Source: a virus (taxonomy: Duplodnaviria > Heunggongvirae > Uroviricota > Caudoviricetes). Taken from it: 17,698 bases of DNA. The notes under the pieces are model-generated. The model was not told the origin of the DNA. It did no database searches and was given only the letters and a program-made list of their open reading frames with translations. The stretch's first letter is position 1. Each line of letters opens with the position of its first letter. The stretch lies in the IMG/VR virus record IMGVR_UViG_3300000292_000161; one strand, 5' to 3'. Shown one piece after another: positions 3,519 through 15,782 of the stretch. Made by a program: the position numbers and the translations under genes.

Positions 3519-5636
3519 CTAGTCATTATCTGGATCATTAGATAGCCAAGTAATGATGCCCAGTCTGGCGATGGTCCGTTTTTCCTGTTCAGGAAGAGAG
3601 TTAAAAAAACTCTTCCATTGAGGGGAGCGCCTGATACGTGAATCAACAATGTGCCCAGGCGCTTTTCCGTGTAGATTTTTTACTGCGCTCTGGAAGGCTG
3701 GCGAGGCAATTAATTTATCCGCAGCATCAGCCGCCCCTGCTCCACCAGCTAATCGAGCTTTACTCGCCAATCTTGCTCCAATATCAGCCCCAGCAATGGC
3801 TCCAAGCGATCCAAAATGAGCGCCTACCATCGTGCCTATTTTTTGAATGTGTTTTGCTGCTAGTTCGTATGGAGCTGTTACCCGATTAAATCTGTTTACA
3901 AACTCATTCAGCTTACCAGTAGATATTTCATGCGCTTTAGCATTTTTTATTGCTCTGGCAACTTTGTATACATCATATAGTCCGCTCATTGTTTCTTTTG
4001 GCAAATGTTCAGCCAAAGTCTTTAGCTGTCCACTGTGTTGCAAGTTTTGCCACCAATCTGCAAAGCCAGATGGATTAAAGTCGGCCCCACGCTTCCCAGA
4101 GGAAAGCATATCTCTTAATGCTGTTCCTACTAGCTCCCTTCGCAATGTTCTTGATGGAGTATTTTGCATAATCTCACGAAACCCTCTCGCATCACCTTTT
4201 GCCATAGATTGAAGAGAATTCGTTACTTTATACGCTATATCCCCATTAAGTGTTTTCCCGCGAAGATTTACCATTTGCCTTTCTAAGTTTTTTCTCATAG
4301 CTACAAGGCGTTGTGCGACTTCGAAATCTCGCAAGTATCCAGTATTGGATAAGACAGATTTTTGGTCTTCAGCTAAAGCTCCATATAGTCTTGATAGCGC
4401 TTCTTTATCAGCATCTTTGTATGGCCCCTGCTTTTTATTTAGGGCATCACCAACTAAACGCCTTTGCCTGTTTAAATTTGCATACGTTAGGATGCTATCT
4501 GGGCCGGGGTTTATTGCTGTAAAAACTCGCTTTTCTATTGGGTCAAGATTATCCCACCCTCCTAAATCATCAGCGATTTTTTCCAGCATAGTGCTTGTGT
4601 TATTTGCTTCGACTTTTGTTCTTGGTGATAGAGCGGAATCAACACGTTTATATAACTGATCACTACGGTTTTTTAGTGCTTCCATTCTACTATTTATCTG
4701 ATAAATATATTTTTCGCTCATAGCTAACGCATCTGGCGCACCAGCAACATCATCGATTATCTTGTCAGCACTAGAGGCTAATTCGCTTATTGCTTTATCT
4801 TCTTGAGCTTTTAACGCTGATCCTGTCCGTGACTTTAGGGCTTGCTCTACAGCTTGGTATTGCTCATTTCCTGATAAATGAGAAGGAAGAACTGAATCAA
4901 CATGAAGCCTATTTGCAGCCTCAACAATTTCTTTCTGAGGTTTTAGATCTAGCCCTTCAAGCGAAGAGGCAAGATTTGGGTTGCCTTGTGCAGATAACTT
5001 ACGAATTTTCTCTTCGGCAGGAGTAATCCCCTCAATATCTGGAATCGAAGAAACATTCTTCTTGGTTAATTTCCCAGCTATTTTATTAATTGCAGGGCCA
5101 GCAAGTTCGGCTACAGGGCCAGCCACAGCGCCAATAGCAGCGCCGGAAGCAACATCGCTATTTGTTCCATTGGCTACAATAGCCCCTTCTCCAGCACCAA
5201 GCCCTACGGCGGCAGCCAGTCTTGCCGCCCCTTTGGGAACCTGAGAAATAATCCCACCACCACTAACAAATGGCGCTGCTTGTCCAACGAACTCACCAAC
5301 ATCTTGTGCGGTTGATGGTTTTGCCGCTAACTTCTGCTGTAGAGACTGAATTGCGGCTTGCTCTTCTGGTGTCATATCCTGAAACAGGCCAACACCTTTA
5401 CCAACATCCATCAATCCACTGAGAACGCCATACATAAAACGGTCGAAACCGTTAGCATTATTAACAACATTTTCCTGTCTGGAATTTTCCTCTGGTGAAA
5501 CCAAAGGTGATTGCTGCTGTTCTGGTTGGGCATCAAGCACAAAACCATCAGGAAGCTGTGAACTATCAGGAAACTGTGAGTTATCAGGTTGTTCATCGAG
5601 CACAAAACCTTCCGGTAAGATTACATTTGCTGCCAT
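3519..5636 (-). CDS. hypothetical 705-aa protein, repeat-rich N-terminus, Gly/Ala-rich low-complexity tracts, C-terminal glycine-zipper-like segment
   Basis: ATG at 5636 with AGGAA 7 nt upstream; overlaps the upstream gene by 16 nt. N-terminal repeats LPEGFVLDEQP / LPDGFVLDAQP; C-terminal GAHFGSLGAIAGADIGARLA; no Walker or nuclease motifs seen. Confidence 0.8.
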   Translation of the reverse strand: MAANVILPEGFVLDEQPDNSQFPDSSQLPDGFVLDAQPEQQQSPLVSPEENSRQENVVNNANGFDRFMYGVLSGLMDVGKGVGLFQDMTPEEQAAIQSLQQKLAAKPSTAQDVGEFVGQAAPFVSGGGIISQVPKGAARLAAAVGLGAGEGAIVANGTNSDVASGAAIGAVAGPVAELAGPAINKIAGKLTKKNVSSIPDIEGITPAEEKIRKLSAQGNPNLASSLEGLDLKPQKEIVEAANRLHVDSVLPSHLSGNEQYQAVEQALKSRTGSALKAQEDKAISELASSADKIIDDVAGAPDALAMSEKYIYQINSRMEALKNRSDQLYKRVDSALSPRTKVEANNTSTMLEKIADDLGGWDNLDPIEKRVFTAINPGPDSILTYANLNRQRRLVGDALNKKQGPYKDADKEALSRLYGALAEDQKSVLSNTGYLRDFEVAQRLVAMRKNLERQMVNLRGKTLNGDIAYKVTNSLQSMAKGDARGFREIMQNTPSRTLRRELVGTALRDMLSSGKRGADFNPSGFADWWQNLQHSGQLKTLAEHLPKETMSGLYDVYKVARAIKNAKAHEISTGKLNEFVNRFNRVTAPYELAAKHIQKIGTMVGAHFGSLGAIAGADIGARLASKARLAGGAGAADAADKLIASPAFQSAVKNLHGKAPGHIVDSRIRRSPQWKSFFNSLPEQEKRTIARLGIITWLSNDPDND

Positions 5637-6964
5637 TTTCCGTTCCTGTAAATGATTTTCTGACCAGTTTTAGGGTTGGTTGCCGTTGCGCCTTCTGATA
5701 TTCCTCCGGTTGCCGCTTTTGCCTGTCCAGTGCCAGCCTGTGATGTAGGCTGCCCGGAAACATCGTCAAATAGCTTCGCTTTCCTTCTTTCAAGGCTTTT
5801 TCTTAGCCCCTGAGGAATAGTTTCTCCATATGTATCGAGATACTCGTCAACCTGCTGGTTAAACTGCTGCCCCATAGCATTGGCGTTGATTTTTGCGGCG
5901 TTAACAATGTTATCCTTTGCCTCCTGCGACAGGCCGTTTCCAGCATTAAGCTGGTCTATGTATCCTTTGATTTGTCCCCATATGCCATCAGACCGCATTA
6001 CCTGAACCTGTTCGCCTTCACGAACGACTGACTGCGGGTCAAGAGATTTCATGTAGTTGAAGATAATCCCAAGTTGGGCAGCGCCAGTATTTACCTTGCT
6101 AAGGGCTTGCAGAGAGTTTGCCGCCGCTCTGACAGAGTTATAATTTTTGCCAAAATTGGTAATGTCAGAATTTAATCCCTTAATTAAGTCTGCTGACGGC
6201 TTACCTTTTTGCCCCAGCTCCATTAGCTTCAATCCCATCTCATCTGAGTGAATTTGTGCTCGCTGAGCCCTGTCTAGTTGAGCGTTCTGGATATTTGCCC
6301 ATCCTCTCGCGTTCTCCATGTCAGCCTGACGCATACTTTCATCCAGTCGCCCTTGCTCAAGTCGACGACCTTCCATTTGATCTTTGATATCGAAATACTT
6401 CTCATGACCGAGAGAAAACAGCGCCAGATTACCTGCGAAATGCTGGAAGCCCTGCGGGTCATTAACCTGCATTTCAGCAATAGTTTCTGGAGGGATACCT
6501 AAACGACGCATCTCCTGCTCATTATCCATCATGAACCTGCCAAATGCGCCCTGACCAAGCGATGAGGCTACCTGTGCTTTGAGCGCCAGATTGCCATAAT
6601 CATCCCTTTGAGCATCATCGACATAACTCATCCCTTTACGGACTTCCTCAAACTCTTCTGGGAATGCTGTAATAAGATTACGCATCTGCTCCCTGTCACC
6701 GGACGCATAAGCATCTGCATAACCTTTCTGGAATGCCGCTTTACGTTCCTGCTGTTGCTGCTGCTTATAAATGTCAGCAACTCCAGCCAGACCACGAAGA
6801 CCTGTCAGAGCAACGTTATTTGCACCTGAGCGAGCCAGTTCATTGTTTTCGCGGATCAGACCAAGCGTTGCGTTAATGTCGCTTGCCTTTGGCGCATTCT
6901 CATTTTGCGCACCGATGCCAGCCAGAAAACCACCAGAATTAATACCCTGTTGCCACGTAGCCAT
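5621..6964 (-). CDS. hypothetical 447-451-aa Gln-rich, probably coiled-coil protein
   Basis: ATG at 6964, 4 nt after the TAA of the 57-aa gene (in-frame GTG at 6976 is the alternative start). Contains poly-Q KQQQQQERK and many Q/E/R heptad-like stretches; no catalytic motif recognised. Confidence 0.8.
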   Translation of the reverse strand: MATWQQGINSGGFLAGIGAQNENAPKASDINATLGLIRENNELARSGANNVALTGLRGLAGVADIYKQQQQQERKAAFQKGYADAYASGDREQMRNLITAFPEEFEEVRKGMSYVDDAQRDDYGNLALKAQVASSLGQGAFGRFMMDNEQEMRRLGIPPETIAEMQVNDPQGFQHFAGNLALFSLGHEKYFDIKDQMEGRRLEQGRLDESMRQADMENARGWANIQNAQLDRAQRAQIHSDEMGLKLMELGQKGKPSADLIKGLNSDITNFGKNYNSVRAAANSLQALSKVNTGAAQLGIIFNYMKSLDPQSVVREGEQVQVMRSDGIWGQIKGYIDQLNAGNGLSQEAKDNIVNAAKINANAMGQQFNQQVDEYLDTYGETIPQGLRKSLERRKAKLFDDVSGQPTSQAGTGQAKAATGGISEGATATNPKTGQKIIYRNGKWQQM

Positions 6965-6968
6965 AAAT

Positions 6969-7142
6969 TTACCCACGTCCAGTTAAAGTGTAAGCCAGCG
7001 CCTTATCCATTAATCCCCGAGCAATTTCGTGGATCGTTGGCGCAACTCCTACCTCTGATTTTTTACGCTGCTCCTCCTGAATTTTCTTTATCGCTTCCAT
7101 TTGCTTCTCACTTATCAATACTGGCTTTACTGAAATAGCCAT
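6969..7142 (-). CDS. 57-aa putative DNA-binding regulator (possibly ribbon-helix-helix), first gene of the cargo operon
   Basis: The 100-aa ORF trimmed to the ATG at 7142, preceded by AAGGGGGG. Sequence MAISVKPVLISEKQMEAIKKIQEE..TIHEIARGLMDKAL; function inferred from size and position only. Confidence 0.5.
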   Translation of the reverse strand: MAISVKPVLISEKQMEAIKKIQEEQRKKSEVGVAPTIHEIARGLMDKALAYTLTGRG

Positions 7143-7236
7143 AACGCCCCCCTTAGAACTGTATAAAACAACAGTCATTATAGTTTCATAAAACGCAACA
7201 TTCATCATTGTGATTGCAAAATATGAAACAAATAGC
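7143..7236 (-). promoter_or_regulatory. candidate promoter of the 57/451/705 operon
   Basis: Perfect -10 TATAAT on the minus strand (plus-strand ATTATA at 7177-7182), about 35 nt upstream of the ATG at 7142. The -35 is poor; sits just downstream of an intrinsic terminator. Confidence 0.35.
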
Positions 7237-7271
7237 ACAAAAAAATGCCACCGTTCAGTAGCTGGTGGCAT
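7237..7271 (-). terminator. rho-independent terminator for leftward transcription
   Basis: Minus-strand RNA would form AUGCCACC-(11-nt loop)-GGUGGCAU followed by a U7 tract (plus-strand A7 at 7238-7244). Confidence 0.6.
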
Positions 7272-7636
7272 CGTTCTGTATGTCAGGTTTTGACAGTTTT
7301 TTTATGGACTCTAAAAACTATATTTATGGAGTCGCATTACTCTTCACGGCAGGCGCTTTCCAGTTCTGCCCTTGCTTCTGGCTCCATTGGTAATTTGATT
7401 CGCGATCAGCTATGCGGATGGTTTGCTGAACAGGCATAACAACATCTCAGAGGCTATTTTTTGAACTACGAAAATTTCGTAGTGCTCACCTTCAAAAACG
7501 TCACGCCCTTGTACACTGGATTTTACAAAAGTCTCGTAAAACTCTTTGCTGTTCTGGGCTATGTGCCAAACCGCAGCGAATACCTCCGTCTGCCAGATGA
7601 GCAAAACATACCTTATAAAGAAAATCGCTGTTTTTG

Positions 7637-7740
7637 CTGTACCACCTGTACCACCATGTCACAAACCCTTGTGTGGCGCGGCCTGCAGGTGGTACAGGTG
7701 GGTAAAAATGACCTCTCCCCACCTGTACAGACCTGTACCA
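7637..7740. repeat. iteron cluster 2 (GGTGGTACAGGT family, both orientations), crr-like
   Basis: CTGTACCACCTGTACCACC at 7637-7655, GGTGGTACAGGTGGGT at 7688-7703, CACCTGTACAGACCTGTACCA at 7719-7740. Confidence 0.75.
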
Positions 7741-7745
7741 TTTAT

Positions 7746-8483
7746 TTAATTTTTACCCATAGCAGCACATAATCCCTTTTTTGAAATATTGAAAAATGCG
7801 TTCATTCTTCCCGCTGGCTTAACCTTGTAGCCGCTTGCCACCATCGCCGCAATAAATGCTCCGTTGGGGATATAGTGCGGGTGATCACTGTGCTGGTGGT
7901 TTATCTGGTTATATCGCTCCACTTCATGCTTCAACGTGTCAGATGTGGGGTTATCCTGCGGGAAGCTCTCAATCTGGGCATTACTCATCCCGTTGTCTCT
8001 GATCCATCTCAGGCAGCTTTTCGCCGATACGATAAATGACGGGTTATCAAGCGGGTTTTCCCAGTCCGCATTCCGGTTGTGGAGCGCCAGTCCGTCAAGG
8101 TTAAATTGTGGGTATTCAGCGGTAATTACTGTCACTGCGTGGCGGATTTCAGTCTCGTCACAACATGGCTCATCTCCCACACCAGCAGGGTAATAATCTG
8201 AACCACCGGGACTGATACAGCGTTTACCACTGAAAGGCCATTGCTTCGCCATTTCGGGTGTTGAGTGATTACCGTCGCTCCGTTCGCGCTGTGCCTCTGT
8301 CCACTGGCTGGCATATTCAGTAAATGAAACTCTTTGCCCCTGGCGCATCCAGTGCGCAATCATAATTAAAGTGCGTTCCAGACTTTGGATGTCGCCAGCA
8401 TTCCCGCACTGTGTAGCGAAACTTTTTAATTCTTCGCGCTCCGTTCTGGTCATTCCCTGCAGTATGCAATAGTTATTGTTCAT
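7746..8483 (-). CDS. hypothetical 245-aa protein
   Basis: ATG at 8483 with SD AGAGAGGT; overlaps the 3-prime end of the upstream 76-aa gene by 11 nt. No motif recognised. Confidence 0.75.
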   Translation of the reverse strand: MNNNYCILQGMTRTEREELKSFATQCGNAGDIQSLERTLIMIAHWMRQGQRVSFTEYASQWTEAQRERSDGNHSTPEMAKQWPFSGKRCISPGGSDYYPAGVGDEPCCDETEIRHAVTVITAEYPQFNLDGLALHNRNADWENPLDNPSFIVSAKSCLRWIRDNGMSNAQIESFPQDNPTSDTLKHEVERYNQINHQHSDHPHYIPNGAFIAAMVASGYKVKPAGRMNAFFNISKKGLCAAMGKN

Positions 8484-8703
8484 GTTTTACCTCTCTGATT
8501 TCTGCTGCCATATCTGTTGGCTCTATACAGCCGTCCCGACTTGCCACGCAGGGAATAATGATTTCAACGGTATCGCCGTCAATACACATTTCAACATTCG
8601 CCCATGCCGCAATGGGTAGCCAGTCTGAACGCCCCTCAAACCGTAGCTGCCAGCCAGAGGAAGAAGCTAACTGGCGCACTTTGTAAAATGGTGTGCTCAT
8701 CAT
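8473..8703 (-). CDS. hypothetical 76-aa protein
   Basis: ATG at 8703 (or 8700) with SD GAGAGGG about 8 nt upstream. Confidence 0.6.
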   Translation of the reverse strand: MMSTPFYKVRQLASSSGWQLRFEGRSDWLPIAAWANVEMCIDGDTVEIIIPCVASRDGCIEPTDMAAEIREVKHEQ

Positions 8704-8747
8704 TGGTTGTTCCCTCTCAGCCAGCCAGAAGAAATGCGTTTGTTAAT

Positions 8748-8850
8748 GGTATAGGTGGTACAGGTCTGGTATAGGTAAGATATTGACCTGTACCACTATA
8801 ACGCATTGTTTTTAATGCTGAATTAGCAAAGTGGTATAGGTGGTACAGGT
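8748..8850. repeat. iteron cluster 1, candidate replication origin immediately 3-prime of the primase gene
   Basis: Perfect 18-mer GGTATAGGTGGTACAGGT at 8748-8765 and 8833-8850, partial copy at 8768-8776, inverted copy ACCTGTACCACTATA at 8786-8800. Confidence 0.75.
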
Positions 8851-8879
8851 AAAAACGATCTTCTTGTAAAAAGACTATA

Positions 8880-11307
8880 TTAAAAAACATCATAACCCCC
8901 CATACCGATCAGACGGGCAAACGCAGCCTGTAGAACTCCGACCTCTGGTAGTTCGTAGAACACGCCATTCCCTCGGTCTGGTCTTCCATGCTTCACCAGC
9001 CCCATTTGTGCAAGTGATTTACCCAGTAGTGATCTGGCAGCTGGTTCTTTAAGCTTTTCCCCACGCTCAAGCGACCACGCTACAAACCGACTAACCATAT
9101 CCTTTGCAAACAAACGGACTTCGCCATTAAACGGAGGTTCATTGATTAGCTCGCCATAAAGAAACAATTCAACGCCAGACAGCCCCAGCAAGATTTCTTC
9201 ACGTAAGGCATCGGTCTGTGGCGCTCGTTGAGGGTCAAAACCTGAGAGATCCACCCCTTTAAGATGCCAAAGCAACTTTGCGGCACCGCCATCATTAAGC
9301 CAACTGTACAGCCGATCAAAATACTCCCGGCTCTGTGCTTTTTCAGGAGATGGCTCAAGCACGAGATAGCGGCGCTCTCTTATCCCTGCCTGTAATACCT
9401 GTGTGCTGTTACTGGCAAATATCAACCGGGCAAAATTCGGCATTGGTTCAGCATCAATTCCCTTGCGCTCAAGGTTAAACGTCGGTTCGCTAATAATCGC
9501 TTTAAGTCTGTCAGCTTCAGACGGCTTGTGGATCGTCACTTCGTCAGCAAATACCAGTAGCTTGTTAGCAAGTATTGAATTGAAGCGCCCTGAAATATGT
9601 CCCGCCCCGTTAATGTGGGCGGCGTACTGCCCCAGTATTTGCAGCAGCGGTTTAACCGTTGTGCCTTTCCCTGTGCCCGGGACAGATTTCATCACGATTG
9701 CCACGGACGGTTTTTCATCAGGCTTTTGGATAATGTGCGCCATCCACTGGATAAGATATTGGTATGCCTCTTCATTACCGGCACAGACAACCTGCAACAG
9801 GTGATTAAGGTATACCGTGCAATCTCCTTCAATTGGTTCCAGTGCCAGCCCCTCATACAGATTAAAAACATCGTCAGGGCATTTGTCTGGTACTGGATAA
9901 AATCCTACGCCTCCTGGCTTGTAGTTCTTCCCACTCCATGACAGCCACGCCGATCCCGCCAGCTTTCTGGCGACTCTCGGTTTATGATGAAAATAATGCT
10001 GAAATTGTGATAAATCCTCGAAAACGTGCGATACACCGCCGGTTTGAGAAGGCTTTAGCGACACCACCTTGTGTTTCCCGCCGATGGTGACATGCGTAAA
10101 CGTCCGGTTGATTTCTTCGAGGACAGCAATTTCATCATCGCTTAACACCTCGCCAGAACTGATCTCATTCAGCGCCCCGACTGACTGTTTGTGATTTTTC
10201 ACCTGCGCCCCTTTCCCCCGTGGCTGGTACATCGAATCTTTAAATGCTGCTGTGGCTGCCGCCAGCCCGTGTTGTTGGTGATAGTCGTTCCAGTCGGCTT
10301 TATAGTCAGTCGGTGGCAGAGACACCCAGCCAGCTACGGAAATAGCGGCCCTCTCTGCGGCATCTTTCCCCGTGTTGATCCCTCCACTTTCGGAGTTTCC
10401 TTGCTGGTGATCGTTATCTGCGGCAATGATGATTTGTGCCTGTGGATATGTTCTGCGCATGACTTCCGCTACTGGCAACAGGTTGCCAGCGTCGATTGCT
10501 GCCACTGTCATTGCGTCAGGGCGAATTAAATGGCACGACAGGGCGGTAGCCACCCCCTCAGCAATTATGNNNNNNNNNNNNNNNNNNNNNNNNNNNNNNN
10601 NNNNNNNNNNNNNNNNNNNNNNNNNNNNNNNNNNNNNNNNNNNNNNNNNNNNNNNNNNNNNNCTGTGCGTTTATGGCGTGATATGCCCCTCGCTTTGCTG
10701 AACCTGTCAGGAGTCTTTTTTCACCATGTGAGGTAATAGTCTGTGCTGCTGTAACTGCGCCGGATTTATCCACCAGCGCCAGCAACAGAGATCCATCGGG
10801 CAACACAGGGAATGTAAAATCACCTACCCCTTTCGCAACCAGATAATCAGATTTGCCGTTTACAGCCTTTCTGCGCATGTCATCAAACTGACGGGAAAAC
10901 GTATCCCGTCTTTGTTGTTCGTCCTTCTCTGCCCTTTTCAGGCGCTCCTGTTCGCGTCGCTGGCGCTCGGTTTCCAGTTGTTCCCGTTTCTGGCTGGTGG
11001 CTTCTGGTGTTTCCGTTGTCCGGTAATCAATACCCAGAACATCAGCGGCAAGCAGCGCCGCCTCTGTTGTGTCGCAGTTATTTACGCGTTTAATTAAATC
11101 CAGCCCATCACCAGCGCCGCACTGATTACAGATGAAGCTACCGCGCCCGTTGTCATCGAACCGGAATCGGTCTTTGCCCCCACATGCAGGGCAGGGAGCA
11201 TGACGGCGCGGAGAGTCAGGGACATTTATGTTCAGGCAGCCCAGCACATGAGGCCAGTTGTTTTCAGACGCACTGATAACCTGACGGATAAGATCAATGT
11301 TTCGCAT
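8880..11307 (-). CDS. P4-type DNA primase/helicase (Zn-ribbon + TOPRIM + D5-like P-loop NTPase), interrupted by an assembly gap
   Basis: N-terminal piece (10558..11307) has CPACGG...CNQCG zinc ribbon; C-terminal piece (8880..10553) has IIIAADND (TOPRIM-like) and P-loop VPGTGKGTT. ATG at 11307 with SD ACGGGGG. Frame across the gap is uninformative. Confidence 0.85.
10570..10662. other. assembly gap (93 N) inside the primase gene
   Basis: Run of n characters read directly from the sequence. Confidence 0.99.
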
Positions 11308-11319
11308 TCTGGCCCCCGT

Positions 11320-11922
11320 TTAGTGCGTCACTGGTGCTTCTGGGATGCCGTTTTCGTTTAGTTCGGCAATAAAGCTGTTGTGAAGATCGGCAAGCACTTC
11401 TCGCCCAAACGAAGTGAGTGTTCCCTGTTCGACATCGAACATGTTGCTGTAAAAAATGATGGCATTCTTTGTTCCGACATCAACACCATATTTCTCGATC
11501 ATTGCGCCCTCAATGTTGTTTGCCATAGCGAGGCGCTCTGCTACTGGATACAGCGGCATGGCGACGATGCCATTGGAATAAACAGAAACCACGGAATGAT
11601 TGCCACTGTCATCAATAATGCTGACGGTGCCGTTTTCCTTTCTCATTTCATTGATTAATGCTGTTGCTATCAGCCAGCGCCACATAATCACGTGATGCTG
11701 TGATGTGTAATCGAAATATCCCTGGTTGCCGCCACTGGCAATAGCGAGATGTATAAACATGCCTTCATCTGGTTTATCGTCATAATCCCCGGCATCCAGA
11801 CGATTTACGGCATCAATATATGAGACGGTCTCAACGCGTTCTGTCATGCCATTGTTGCTGCGGTGCATGATGTTTACGCCGTCAGGCGTTGCTTCTGCAT
11901 GGAAGGTTAAGAAATTATTCAT
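11320..11922 (-). CDS. hypothetical 200-aa protein
   Basis: 235-aa ORF trimmed to the ATG at 11922 (MNNFLTF), with SD GGCGAGG and an ATGAATAA stop/start overlap with the upstream 73-aa gene; 12 nt upstream of the primase start. Confidence 0.7.
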   Translation of the reverse strand: MNNFLTFHAEATPDGVNIMHRSNNGMTERVETVSYIDAVNRLDAGDYDDKPDEGMFIHLAIASGGNQGYFDYTSQHHVIMWRWLIATALINEMRKENGTVSIIDDSGNHSVVSVYSNGIVAMPLYPVAERLAMANNIEGAMIEKYGVDVGTKNAIIFYSNMFDVEQGTLTSFGREVLADLHNSFIAELNENGIPEAPVTH

Positions 11923-12985: not shown

Positions 12986-13647
12986 GTGGCAGCCTCCTTC
13001 AGATAGCAGGTTACGCTACCACCGGAAACGCCAATTTCGCTGGTGGTAGCCCAGACAGGGTTGGCGTAACCGGCTCTGAAGGATACCGGCGCTTCCGAAG
13101 AAGCCCCCGCCTGAGCCACCATTGATTGACAAAGGCGCTGGATTATACACCAACGCCCAAAAAATGGGTGAGTCAGACCTACGACATAAAAAAAGACGCT
13201 CGGCGCGTCATATGTCGCCTTCAGAATTTTCAGGACGCCAATCCCGGCACCCGTTTTATGAGGTGCCTTATAACCATAAACCGTGTTGCCGCATAACGGC
13301 AAGCTCTTTTTTATGGACTCCGAAAACTCACTATTGGAAGAACCAGAAGCACAGTACATCGCGCTCATTTCGTTAACGTCACGCGCGTGGACGAAGGTTT
13401 TTGTGGAGTCACTACACGAGCAGAGAAAGCCATCTACGACCAGAAATTCTCTGGCATAGCCGCTGACCTTCTCAACGCTAACACCATCGACCGTAATTTC
13501 TGACATAGTTAAGGCATCCGCTCCTACCACCAGCAAATGATAAACTTTGCTTGTATCTGCTGTATTAATGTCTGACTTTGCTGTCATATTGCTGGATTTT
13601 GGCGACATACCAGCCAGTGAAAATGTCTTCTTCTGGACGGGTATCAT
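12986..13647 (-). CDS. hypothetical protein, start well supported, 3-prime end undetermined
   Basis: ATG at 13647 with SD GGAGGT and ATGA overlap with the upstream gene. Coding-like to about 13010, but the frame has no stop until 12580, so a frameshift or sequence error is possible. Confidence 0.4.
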
Positions 13648-15311: not shown

Positions 15312-15376
15312 ATCTCTAGTAACCTCTCTGATAGCTCATGAAGTTACTTAAAGTTTAGTGGTTGCCCATACAGTAT

Positions 15377-15462
15377 TTCTATTAAGACTAGAATCTATTG
15401 AAAGAAATTATAAATCTATTGAAAAAATACCGATCCACTGAAAGATTGCAAATACAGGTGGG
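15377..15462. promoter_or_regulatory. phased repeat array in the alpA-operon control region
   Basis: ATCTATTGAAA at 15393 and 15414 (21-bp spacing), related TTCTATTAAG at 15377-15386 and CACTGAAAG near 15436; TACAGGTGGG (iteron-core-like) at 15453-15462. Confidence 0.4.
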
Positions 15463-15782
15463 ATAATTATTTTCTTTATTTTCAATTAGTTACCAGTTTA
15501 AAAAATCATTGTTTTATCAAAGAGTTATATCTTTCATCGTCATTCATCATGTTTTTACATTTCTTTTTATCTTTTATTATTCAATTGGTTGAGTCGGTTT
15601 ATAATGGCTCATGATGGCTTAAAATGGCTAATGATAGCTGGCGTATCTTTTAGAGATGGGGTGATTACAGATGAACTAAGCCGAACAGATATAGCAATGG
15701 CTAGGCATAGAATTATCTATGCTGGTGGAGATGGGTAAACAGGTAATGCCCCGCCATTGCTTTGGAGGGGCGTGAAAAGTGA

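What the first reader, a model, noticed from the sequence alone, without database searches (positions are those of the whole stretch)
7637..8850. Two GGTGGTACAGGT iteron clusters bracket the 76-aa and 245-aa genes just downstream of the primase
Cluster 1 (8748-8850) has two perfect 18-mers plus partial and inverted copies; cluster 2 (7637-7740) has at least five core copies in both orientations. A further core copy, TACAGGTGGG, lies at 15453-15462 in the alpA control region. The layout parallels the ori and crr sites bound by P4 alpha, implying a primase-driven replicon with a possible regulatory link to the alpA promoter.
Basis: partly seen in the sequence, partly recalled or inferred. Interest (0 to 1): 0.45.

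Follow-up and report, generated by a model that had tools for sequence, protein, structure and literature searches.

The report
Split replication origin of a phage satellite
The two repeat clusters are almost certainly the binding sites of the island's own primase-helicase, forming the replication origin of an E. coli phage-inducible chromosomal island. This is a known kind of origin; the unusual point is that its two mirror-image halves are separated by two small genes.

Summary
The unit is a 9-mer, TGGTAYAGG. All nine exact copies in the 17.7-kb window lie in 7636-7740 and 8747-8849, on either side of the 76-aa and 245-aa genes downstream of a 783-aa primase-helicase.

The window is an integrase/AlpA/primase island at the yicC-dinD site, a published attachment site for Gram-negative phage-inducible chromosomal islands (PICIs).

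In relatives from five other genera the same motif keeps the same spacing while the spacers diverge. Islands that share only the primase's N-terminal domain carry different iterons at the same position. The motif therefore tracks the helicase/C-terminal half of the primase, which is predicted to end in a winged helix.

Cluster 1 has an AT-rich spacer and the same arrangement of copies as the phage P4 ori (2 + 1 inverted + 3). I read it as the origin proper. Cluster 2 is an inverted partial copy with a GC-rich spacer, probably an auxiliary binding site. In a Yersinia relative the two halves are contiguous, so the origin here is split by inserted genes.

The P4 analogy holds for architecture but not for family membership. 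The proposed link to the alpA promoter is not supported. Binding and replication are inferred, not shown.

Verdict: a new member of a known kind, of modest interest.

The parts
8880..11307 (-). Primase-helicase (Pri-Rep) gene. It is 783 aa in identical genomes. The window copy is interrupted by 93 N at 10570-10662.
8747..8850 (.). Cluster 1, the proposed origin proper. Six 9-mers TGGTAYAGG lie at 8747(+), 8756(+), 8767(+), 8787(-), 8832(+) and 8841(+).
   Evidence: Same spacing in Raoultella, Buttiauxella, Pantoea, Xenorhabdus, Salmonella and Yersinia relatives. Same geometry as the P4 ori.
8796..8831 (.). AT-rich 36-nt spacer inside cluster 1 (31% GC against 46% for the window). It is the candidate DNA-unwinding site.
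   Evidence: It matches the AT-rich region between iteron sets described for PICI origins (PMC6092414) and the AT-rich spacer of the P4 ori.
8473..8703 (-). 76-aa gene embedded between the two origin halves. Function unknown.
   Evidence: No Pfam or PHROG hit. Homologues follow cluster 1 in L003, L004, L027, L030, L035 and L039, and only with this Rep/iteron lineage.
7746..8483 (-). 245-aa gene embedded between the two origin halves. It belongs to a family that sits next to the origin in islands with three different Rep types.
7636..7740 (.). Cluster 2, an inverted partial copy of cluster 1. 9-mers lie at 7636(-), 7645(-), 7690(+), 7722(-, degenerate) and 7732(-). Proposed auxiliary Rep-binding site (second origin half, crr-like).
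   Evidence: Conserved in L003, L027, L030 and L035 with spacing 43/44/9. It is exchanged together with the primase module, as shown by comparison with L037.
7654..7689 (.). GC-rich 36-nt spacer inside cluster 2 (64% GC), with CCGCG conserved in the enterobacterial relatives (CCGCGCC in E. coli and Buttiauxella). It is unlike a DNA-unwinding element.
15453..15462 (+). I reject it as an iteron.
   Evidence: It has three mismatches to the 9-mer, and no hit with up to 1 mismatch lies in 15312-15782. There are 13 such 10-mer matches in the window against about 6 expected.

Best explanation
The two clusters are arrays of iterons bound by the winged-helix C-terminal domain of the island's own primase-helicase. 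Together they form the replication origin of a Gram-negative PICI-type phage satellite integrated at yicC-dinD.

Cluster 1 lies 31 nt after the primase stop. It has two tandem copies, a 36-nt AT-rich spacer, one inverted copy and three more copies. I take it to be the origin proper, where Rep oligomerises, melts the AT-rich spacer, loads as an SF3 helicase and primes.

Cluster 2 is the mirror-image second half of an originally compact, roughly 210-bp symmetric origin. In this lineage the 76-aa and 245-aa genes separate the halves by about 1 kb. Cluster 2 most likely acts as an auxiliary Rep-binding site, either enhancing initiation like P4 crr or limiting it by pairing with cluster 1.

Shown here: the repeats, their conservation, their co-variation with the Rep C-terminal half, and the shared geometry with P4 ori. 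Inferred: binding, melting and the role of cluster 2.
For: 1. **Enrichment and confinement.**

2. **Position.** Every relative of this primase has its own iterons starting about 20-35 nt after the stop codon: TGAACCAAC, ACGGGTTA, AGACAACA, ATCCCTACCA, CGGTCACA (also L037).

3. **Co-variation with the Rep C-terminal half.**
- Only loci that share that half carry the TGGTAYAGG-type (CTGTACCA) iteron, or one-mismatch variants of it. These are L003, L004, L027, L030 and L035, plus the helicase-only Reps L039 (80% identical) and L040 (55%).
- Loci sharing only residues 1-340 do not carry it.

4. **Phylogenetic footprint.**
- Iteron columns are 77% and 72% identical to E. coli, against 43.5% and 41.5% for other intergenic columns.
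- The spacing >>(9)-44-<-21->-11->-9/10-> recurs in five loci from five genera (E. coli, Raoultella, Buttiauxella, Pantoea, X. innexi). X. ehlersii keeps only the promoter-distal part of cluster 1.
- In an E. coli variant 97.4% identical, none of the 13 SNPs in the two regions hits a good iteron. One SNP repairs the degenerate copy.

5. **Not tied to the 245-aa gene.** Its homologues sit beside AAAGTGGG-type iterons with AAA_25 Reps, and beside ACCGACAA with a DUF927 primase.

6. **Cluster 2 behaves as a Rep site.**
- In L031 an unrelated iteron (ACCGACAA) again forms two inverted clusters around the 245-aa homologue.
- In X. innexi the two clusters flank only the 73-aa gene.
- In Y. enterocolitica L040 the two inverted halves abut (5687-5896).
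- The island variant L037 swaps the primase, both clusters and both genes as one block.

7. **Known systems.**
- PICI origins lie immediately 3' of pri-rep, as iteron sets flanking an AT-rich region. The EcCICFT073 pri-ori segment replicates a plasmid (PMC6092414).
- yicC-dinD is a listed PICI site. The integrase is 89% identical to that of EcCIRM13514.
- The P4 record annotates ori and crr with the same kind of repeats, and the P4 ori geometry matches cluster 1.

8. **Predicted DNA-binding domain.** Primase residues 650-783 model as a winged helix.
Against: - No experiment here shows binding or replication.
- Cluster 2's main spacer is GC-rich (64%), so it is unlikely to melt. Its role is open.
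- Some relatives manage with cluster 1 alone (Salmonella L039; L005-type islands). X. ehlersii L030 has lost half of cluster 1 but keeps cluster 2. Neither half is therefore demonstrably essential, and some of these islands may be defective.
- No promoter or terminator was found around the clusters, so transcriptional roles are untested.
Confidence: 0.85

Rival explanations
1. Both clusters are independent, complete origins: an inverted duplication giving two initiation sites that fire in opposite orientations.
For: Cluster 2 reproduces the '>> 44 <' core of cluster 1 in inverted orientation. In L031 the duplicate includes the AT-rich spacer. In Xenorhabdus the cluster 2 spacer is AT-rich, and X. 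ehlersii keeps cluster 2 while half of cluster 1 is deleted.
Against: In E. coli, Raoultella and Buttiauxella the cluster 2 spacer is GC-rich (64% in the window) with a conserved CCGCG. Cluster 2 also has fewer copies. Several relatives have only the cluster 1 half.
Confidence: 0.15
2. The repeats are operators for a transcription factor, for example the 245-aa protein with a possible winged helix, or AlpA. They would control the 76-aa/245-aa genes and would not be Rep sites.
For: The clusters flank these genes. The 245-aa model has weak winged-helix-like matches. Cluster 1 lies just upstream of the 76-aa start codon.
Against: The motif follows the Rep type, not the 245-aa protein. Homologues 54-67% identical sit beside quite different iterons. 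Islands with no 245-aa or 76-aa gene still have iterons at the same place. No sigma-70-like promoter was found at either cluster.
Confidence: 0.07
3. The clusters are terminal inverted repeats of a small mobile or invertible cassette carrying the two genes.
For: 24-nt arms, 88% complementary, lie at the outer ends. The content between the clusters differs between lineages: both genes, only the 73-aa gene, only the 245-aa homologue, or nothing.
Against: There is no transposase or invertase between the arms, and the two ORFs have no such domains. Each arm is an internally repeated array with P4-ori-like geometry. Cluster 1 occurs alone in many islands. The orientation of the embedded genes is the same in every locus seen.
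Confidence: 0.04

Closest known systems
Replication origin of Gram-negative phage-inducible chromosomal islands (EcCICFT073 and other E. coli PICIs; Fillol-Salom et al. 2018, PMC6092414)
   Same: The island type matches: integrase, AlpA, unidirectional genes, PerC at the far end, and the yicC-dinD attachment site used by EcCIRM13514, whose integrase is 89% identical. The origin lies immediately 3' of the pri-rep gene, with iteron sets flanking an AT-rich stretch.
   Different: The Rep here is of the DUF5906 type with its own iteron, TGGTAYAGG. A second, inverted iteron cluster lies about 1 kb further on, beyond two embedded genes. The text and legends I could read describe only sets flanking one AT-rich region. 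I could not see Fig. 2a, so this island's origin may already be drawn there.
Satellite phage P4 ori and crr, bound by the alpha primase-helicase (NC_001609 annotation; alpha binding known from the P4 literature, my own knowledge)
   Same: The N-terminal Zn-ribbon/Toprim primase domain is homologous (33% identity over 335 aa). Both proteins hit DUF5906. Both have two separate iteron regions with copies in both orientations. Cluster 1 has the same 2 + 1 inverted + 3 layout and spacing as P4 ori, with an AT-rich spacer. One region lies directly after the primase gene.
   Different: The iteron sequence differs (TGTTCACC in P4). The helicase and C-terminal halves are not detectably homologous, with no D5_N or Pox_D5 hit. 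P4's crr is two 120-bp direct repeats next to alpha, with ori 4.5 kb away. Here the ori-like cluster is next to the primase and the second cluster is an inverted partial copy 1.1 kb away. No sid/psu/delta genes were found in the ORFs scanned.
[quoted passage not shown]
   Same: Same placement and the same logic: each Rep variant has its matching iterons.
   Different: Unrelated sequence and host. The SaPI origin is a single compact region with no embedded genes.
Iteron plasmids with a second control array (P1 incC/incA, F incB/incC; my own knowledge)
   Same: Two iteron arrays bracket a gene, and the second array acts on copy number by pairing.
   Different: In those plasmids the bracketed gene is the initiator itself, and the initiator is a RepA-type protein, not a primase-helicase. 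Nothing here tests pairing.

Membership tests
Gram-negative PICI replication origin | Origin lies immediately 3' of the pri-rep gene | tested here: met
   The first iteron ends 31 nt after the primase stop. The same placement is seen in all relatives.
Gram-negative PICI replication origin | [quoted passage not shown] | tested here: met
   In cluster 1, two copies and four copies flank a 36-nt spacer of 31% GC.
Gram-negative PICI replication origin | Host island has PICI hallmarks (integrase, alpA, one transcription direction, PICI-specific att site) | tested here: met
   The yicC-dinD site is listed for EcCIRM13514, whose integrase is 89% identical.
Gram-negative PICI replication origin | The pri-rep plus ori segment supports autonomous replication, and the island is phage-inducible | not testable with these tools
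   Needs the plasmid-maintenance and induction assays of PMC6092414.
P4 ori/crr replicon | Alpha-type protein: primase, SF3 helicase and C-terminal winged-helix origin-binding domain | tested here: inconclusive
P4 ori/crr replicon | Type I iteron TGTTCACC | tested here: not met
   The iteron here is TGGTAYAGG.
P4 ori/crr replicon | ori layout: three copies, one inverted copy, an AT-rich spacer, two copies | tested here: met
   Cluster 1 spacing is 9, 11, 20, 45, 9 (+ + + - + +). P4 spacing is 10, 11, 22, 43, 10 (- - - + - -).
P4 ori/crr replicon | A second, distant iteron region required in cis (crr: two 120-bp direct repeats) | tested here: inconclusive
   A second cluster exists (7636-7740), but it is a single inverted partial copy, not two direct repeats. 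The cis requirement cannot be tested.
P4 ori/crr replicon | P4 satellite genes sid, psu, delta | tested here: not met
   No such family was found among 20 ORFs scanned. A few small ORFs were not scanned.
Iteron plasmids with a handcuffing control array (P1, F) | Arrays bracket the initiator gene, and the initiator is RepA-like | tested here: not met
   The arrays bracket the 76-aa and 245-aa genes, and the initiator is a primase-helicase.

The most novel reading that the evidence does not exclude
The origin of this satellite lineage is a mirror-symmetric two-part origin that repeatedly acquires genes between its halves. Examples are the 76-aa and 245-aa genes here, only the 73-aa gene in X. 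innexi, and only the 245-aa homologue in an island with an unrelated iteron. Under this reading the embedded, origin-associated 245-aa protein (a possible winged helix) takes part in or tunes initiation, and Rep bound at the two halves loops the cassette to couple its expression or copy control to replication.
Probability: 0.2. Interest if true: 0.5.

Novelty: new member of a known kind. Interest (0 to 1): 0.3.

Why it matters
It locates the origin and the Rep specificity determinant of a satellite island present in about 130 complete E. coli genomes. That is useful for annotation, for predicting which islands can cross-replicate or compete, and for building satellite-based vectors.

The comparative series shows three states: compact origin, split origin and half origin. 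P4 ori shares cluster 1's geometry. Together these link the PICI and P4 replication modules more closely than their protein sequences suggest.

The series also gives a natural set of variants for asking what a second iteron array does. None of this overturns current understanding.

Tried and rejected
- **alpA-promoter copy.** Rejected.
- **Remote homology of the helicase/C-terminal half to P4 alpha.** BLASTP and hhalign are not significant, and the PDB sequence search hit only the NrS-1 helicase.
- **The 76-aa protein.** No family hit.
- **Promoter/terminator scan of 6900-9000.** Nothing at the clusters.
- **Rfam.** No RNA family in the region.
- **Iteron sequences in the PICI paper.** Not found in the text or supplements; the figure is not held.
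- **Paper search for P4 ori/crr details.** It returned nothing usable, so statements on alpha binding rest on the GenBank annotation and my own knowledge.
- **Cnr-like identity of the 200-aa gene upstream of the primase.** Only sub-threshold DUF5375 hits, and those in its homologues.
- **att core GAGCAGATTCAA.** Only one 1-mismatch copy was found, at the yicC end of L001, so the island ends were not defined.

Full report
**1. What the window is**

The window matches 60 complete E. coli genomes over at least 80% of its length, and the listed best matches are 100% identical. In NZ_CP147608 it lies between dinD and yicC.

Its genes run in one direction on the minus strand:
- integrase, then a 216-aa protein and an AlpA-type HTH protein;
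- AntA/B, DUF4222 and an Ash-family ORF;
- small ORFs and a 200-aa ORF;
- a 783-aa primase-helicase (Zn_Ribbon_Prim, Toprim_3, DUF5906);
- the 76-aa and 245-aa ORFs;
- a 57-aa ORF and two P22-type ejection proteins;
- ImmA/IrrE and PerC.

The window copy of the primase gene carries 93 N at 10570-10662 in place of 17 nt. This is an assembly gap, not biology.

yicC-dinD is listed as the attachment site of the phage-inducible chromosomal island EcCIRM13514 (supplement of PMC6092414). That island's integrase is 89% identical to this one. No sid, psu or delta was found in the ORFs scanned. The island is therefore an E. coli PICI-type satellite, not a P4-type one.

**2. The observation**

The 12-mer and the underlying 9-mer TGGTAYAGG are strongly over-represented: 10 hits against 0.77 expected, and 15 against 4.8, with no shuffle reaching either value. 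All exact copies fall in 7636-7740 and 8747-8849.

On the plus strand, cluster 1 reads + + + - [36-nt spacer] + +. Cluster 2 reads - - [36-nt spacer] + (-) -. Cluster 2 is thus an inverted copy of the core of cluster 1, with outer arms 88% complementary over 24 nt.

The cluster 1 spacer is 31% GC and the cluster 2 spacer is 64% GC, against a window mean of 46%.

**3. Comparative evidence that these are Rep sites**

*Relatives of the primase.* Two loci share its helicase/C-terminal half: Buttiauxella L003 and Pantoea stewartii L004. About twenty share only residues 1-340. Only the first group contains TGGTAYAGG, and there it lies directly downstream of the primase.

The second group has other iterons at exactly the same place: TGAACCAAC, ACGGGTTA, AGACAACA, ATCCCTACCA, CGGTCACA. 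These start about 20-35 nt after the stop, with 9-bp tandem spacing, a gap of about 45-50 nt, and then inverted copies.

*Loci reached through the 245-aa protein and the helicase half.* These added Raoultella L027, Xenorhabdus L030 and L035, Salmonella L039 and Yersinia L040. All carry the CTGTACCA-type motif.

*Conserved spacing.*
- Cluster 1 is >>(9)-44-<-21->-11->-9/10->. It recurs in E. coli, Raoultella, Buttiauxella, Pantoea and X. innexi.
- X. ehlersii keeps only the distal part of cluster 1.
- Cluster 2 is <-43->-44-<<(9).

*Conservation against background.* Iteron columns are 77% and 72% identical to E. coli, against 43.5% and 41.5% for the remaining intergenic columns. In an E. coli variant 97.4% identical, 13 SNPs fall in the two regions. 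None hits a good iteron, and one converts the degenerate copy toward consensus.

*The motif is not tied to the 245-aa protein.* Homologues 54-67% identical to it sit beside AAAGTGGG-like iterons of AAA_25 Reps. A 41% homologue sits beside ACCGACAA iterons of a DUF927 primase.

**4. What the second cluster is**

Four observations indicate that it belongs to the replication module.
- (a) In L031 an unrelated iteron, ACCGACAA, again forms two clusters around the 245-aa homologue. The second is an inverted copy of the first, including its AT-rich spacer.
- (b) In X. innexi the two CTGTACCA clusters flank only the 73-aa gene, and the 245-aa homologue follows cluster 2.
- (c) In Y. enterocolitica L040 the Rep is 55% identical and the island carries capsid genes. 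There the two inverted halves are contiguous at 5687-5896.
- (d) A sister E. coli island, L037, shares the sequence from window 7545 leftwards and the genes upstream of the primase. It has a DUF927 primase with TGAACCAAC iterons and neither embedded gene. The exchanged block therefore runs from the primase C-terminal half through cluster 2.

Many DUF927-type islands also have an extended contiguous array of about 260-300 bp, with tandem triplets at both outer ends.

The simplest reading is a symmetric two-half origin that is split in this lineage by inserted genes.

Some relatives have only the cluster 1 half (Salmonella L039; the L005 type). X. ehlersii has lost part of cluster 1 but keeps cluster 2. 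The second half therefore looks auxiliary, but I cannot tell which islands are functional.

**5. Comparison with P4**

The GenBank record places crr directly after alpha and ori 4.5 kb away, both built from type I repeats in both orientations.

The P4 ori layout is - - - + [AT-rich spacer] - -, with spacings 10, 11, 22, 43, 10. This is the same as cluster 1: + + + - [AT-rich spacer] + +, with spacings 9, 11, 20, 45, 9.

The 'tandem pair, about 44 nt, inverted copy' core also appears in each crr repeat and in cluster 2.

At the protein level only the N-terminal primase domain is demonstrably homologous (33% identity). Both proteins hit DUF5906, but D5_N and Pox_D5 are found only in alpha, and hhalign is not significant.

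So the element works like P4 ori/crr in layout, but it fails the sequence-based membership features.

**6. Mechanism proposed**

AlpA-driven transcription produces the primase-helicase. That AlpA activates these islands comes from PMC6092414. The steps I propose are:
1. The winged-helix domain binds the 9-mers of cluster 1 on one face of the helix. The spacings of 9-11 and 21 nt fit this.
2. The 31%-GC spacer melts.
3. The SF3 helicase loads, and the Toprim domain primes.
4. Cluster 2 binds more Rep. It either assists assembly, like crr, or pairs with cluster 1 to limit firing.

Every step after 'the repeats exist and co-vary with Rep' is inference.

**7. What is not supported**

The 10-mer at 15453-15462 is not an iteron, so there is no evidence for a link to the alpA promoter.

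**8. Verdict**

This is a real, conserved replication origin of a known kind (PICI/P4-type). Cluster 1 fits published descriptions. The split, mirror-image arrangement with embedded genes is a modest variant that I did not find described in the texts available to me. Interest is about 0.3.

Noticed in passing
window 10570-10662: A run of 93 N inside the primase gene replaces 17 nt present in identical genomes. It splits the ORF into 8880-10553 and 10558-11307 in ORF lists. It is an assembly or masking gap, not a frameshift.
   Followed up: yes
window 13039-13126 (-) and 13189-13266 (-): Rfam hits above gathering score to C4 antisense RNA (79.9 bits) and isrK Hfq-binding RNA (67.8 bits). Both lie inside the annotated 355-aa 'ash family' ORF, with an AntA/B antirepressor gene just upstream. 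This looks like a P1/P7-type c4-ant immunity module in a satellite, and the ORF call there may be wrong.
   Followed up: no
window 3519-5636 (-) and 5621-6964 (-): Two P22-type ejection (DNA transfer) proteins: Inj_translocase at E 2.5e-73, and phrog_6704/phrog_770. They are carried by an island in which no capsid, tail or packaging gene was found among the ORFs scanned. They may serve helper exploitation or interference. The same pair occurs in the sister island L037, which has a different primase.
   Followed up: partly
window 7400-7545: A 146-nt unannotated stretch is 93-96% identical in several hundred other E. coli genomes whose islands carry different replication modules (for example L037 4001-4146). 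It marks the left boundary of the exchangeable primase-origin block. Its own function is unknown.
   Followed up: partly
window 11320-11922 (-): The 200-aa gene directly upstream of the primase is homologous to proteins in Raoultella and Xenorhabdus. Those homologues give sub-threshold hits (E about 0.2) to DUF5375, the family of P4 ORF106 (which I recall as Cnr), which occupies the same position in P4. It also shares a C-terminal AP-V-H ending. The gene may be a copy-number regulator, but this is unproven.
   Followed up: partly
window 15600-15639 and 15390-15440: The alpA-upstream region has four tandem 10-bp units ending in ATGGCT/ATAGCT, and two copies of TCTATTGAAA. These are candidate AlpA or integrase arm sites. 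They are unrelated to the iterons.
   Followed up: no
L027-L035 (homologues of window 7746-8483): The 245-aa protein family always sits next to the origin, in islands with three unrelated Rep types (DUF5906 primase, DUF927 primase, AAA_25). It is often followed by an SSB gene and then ProQ and PerC. This suggests a replication-associated role for an uncharacterised family.
   Followed up: partly
L004 4941-6900 (Pantoea stewartii): A decayed copy of the module. The primase lacks its N-terminal 300 residues, cluster 1 and the 76-aa gene are intact, the 245-aa gene is reduced to a few codons, and cluster 2 is absent.
   Followed up: yes
hits (P0030, P0043, P0048, P0083, P0108): Several public records name helicase-only relatives of this Rep 'integrase'. 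These have DUF5906 and no Toprim domain, so the name appears to be a propagated misannotation.
   Followed up: no
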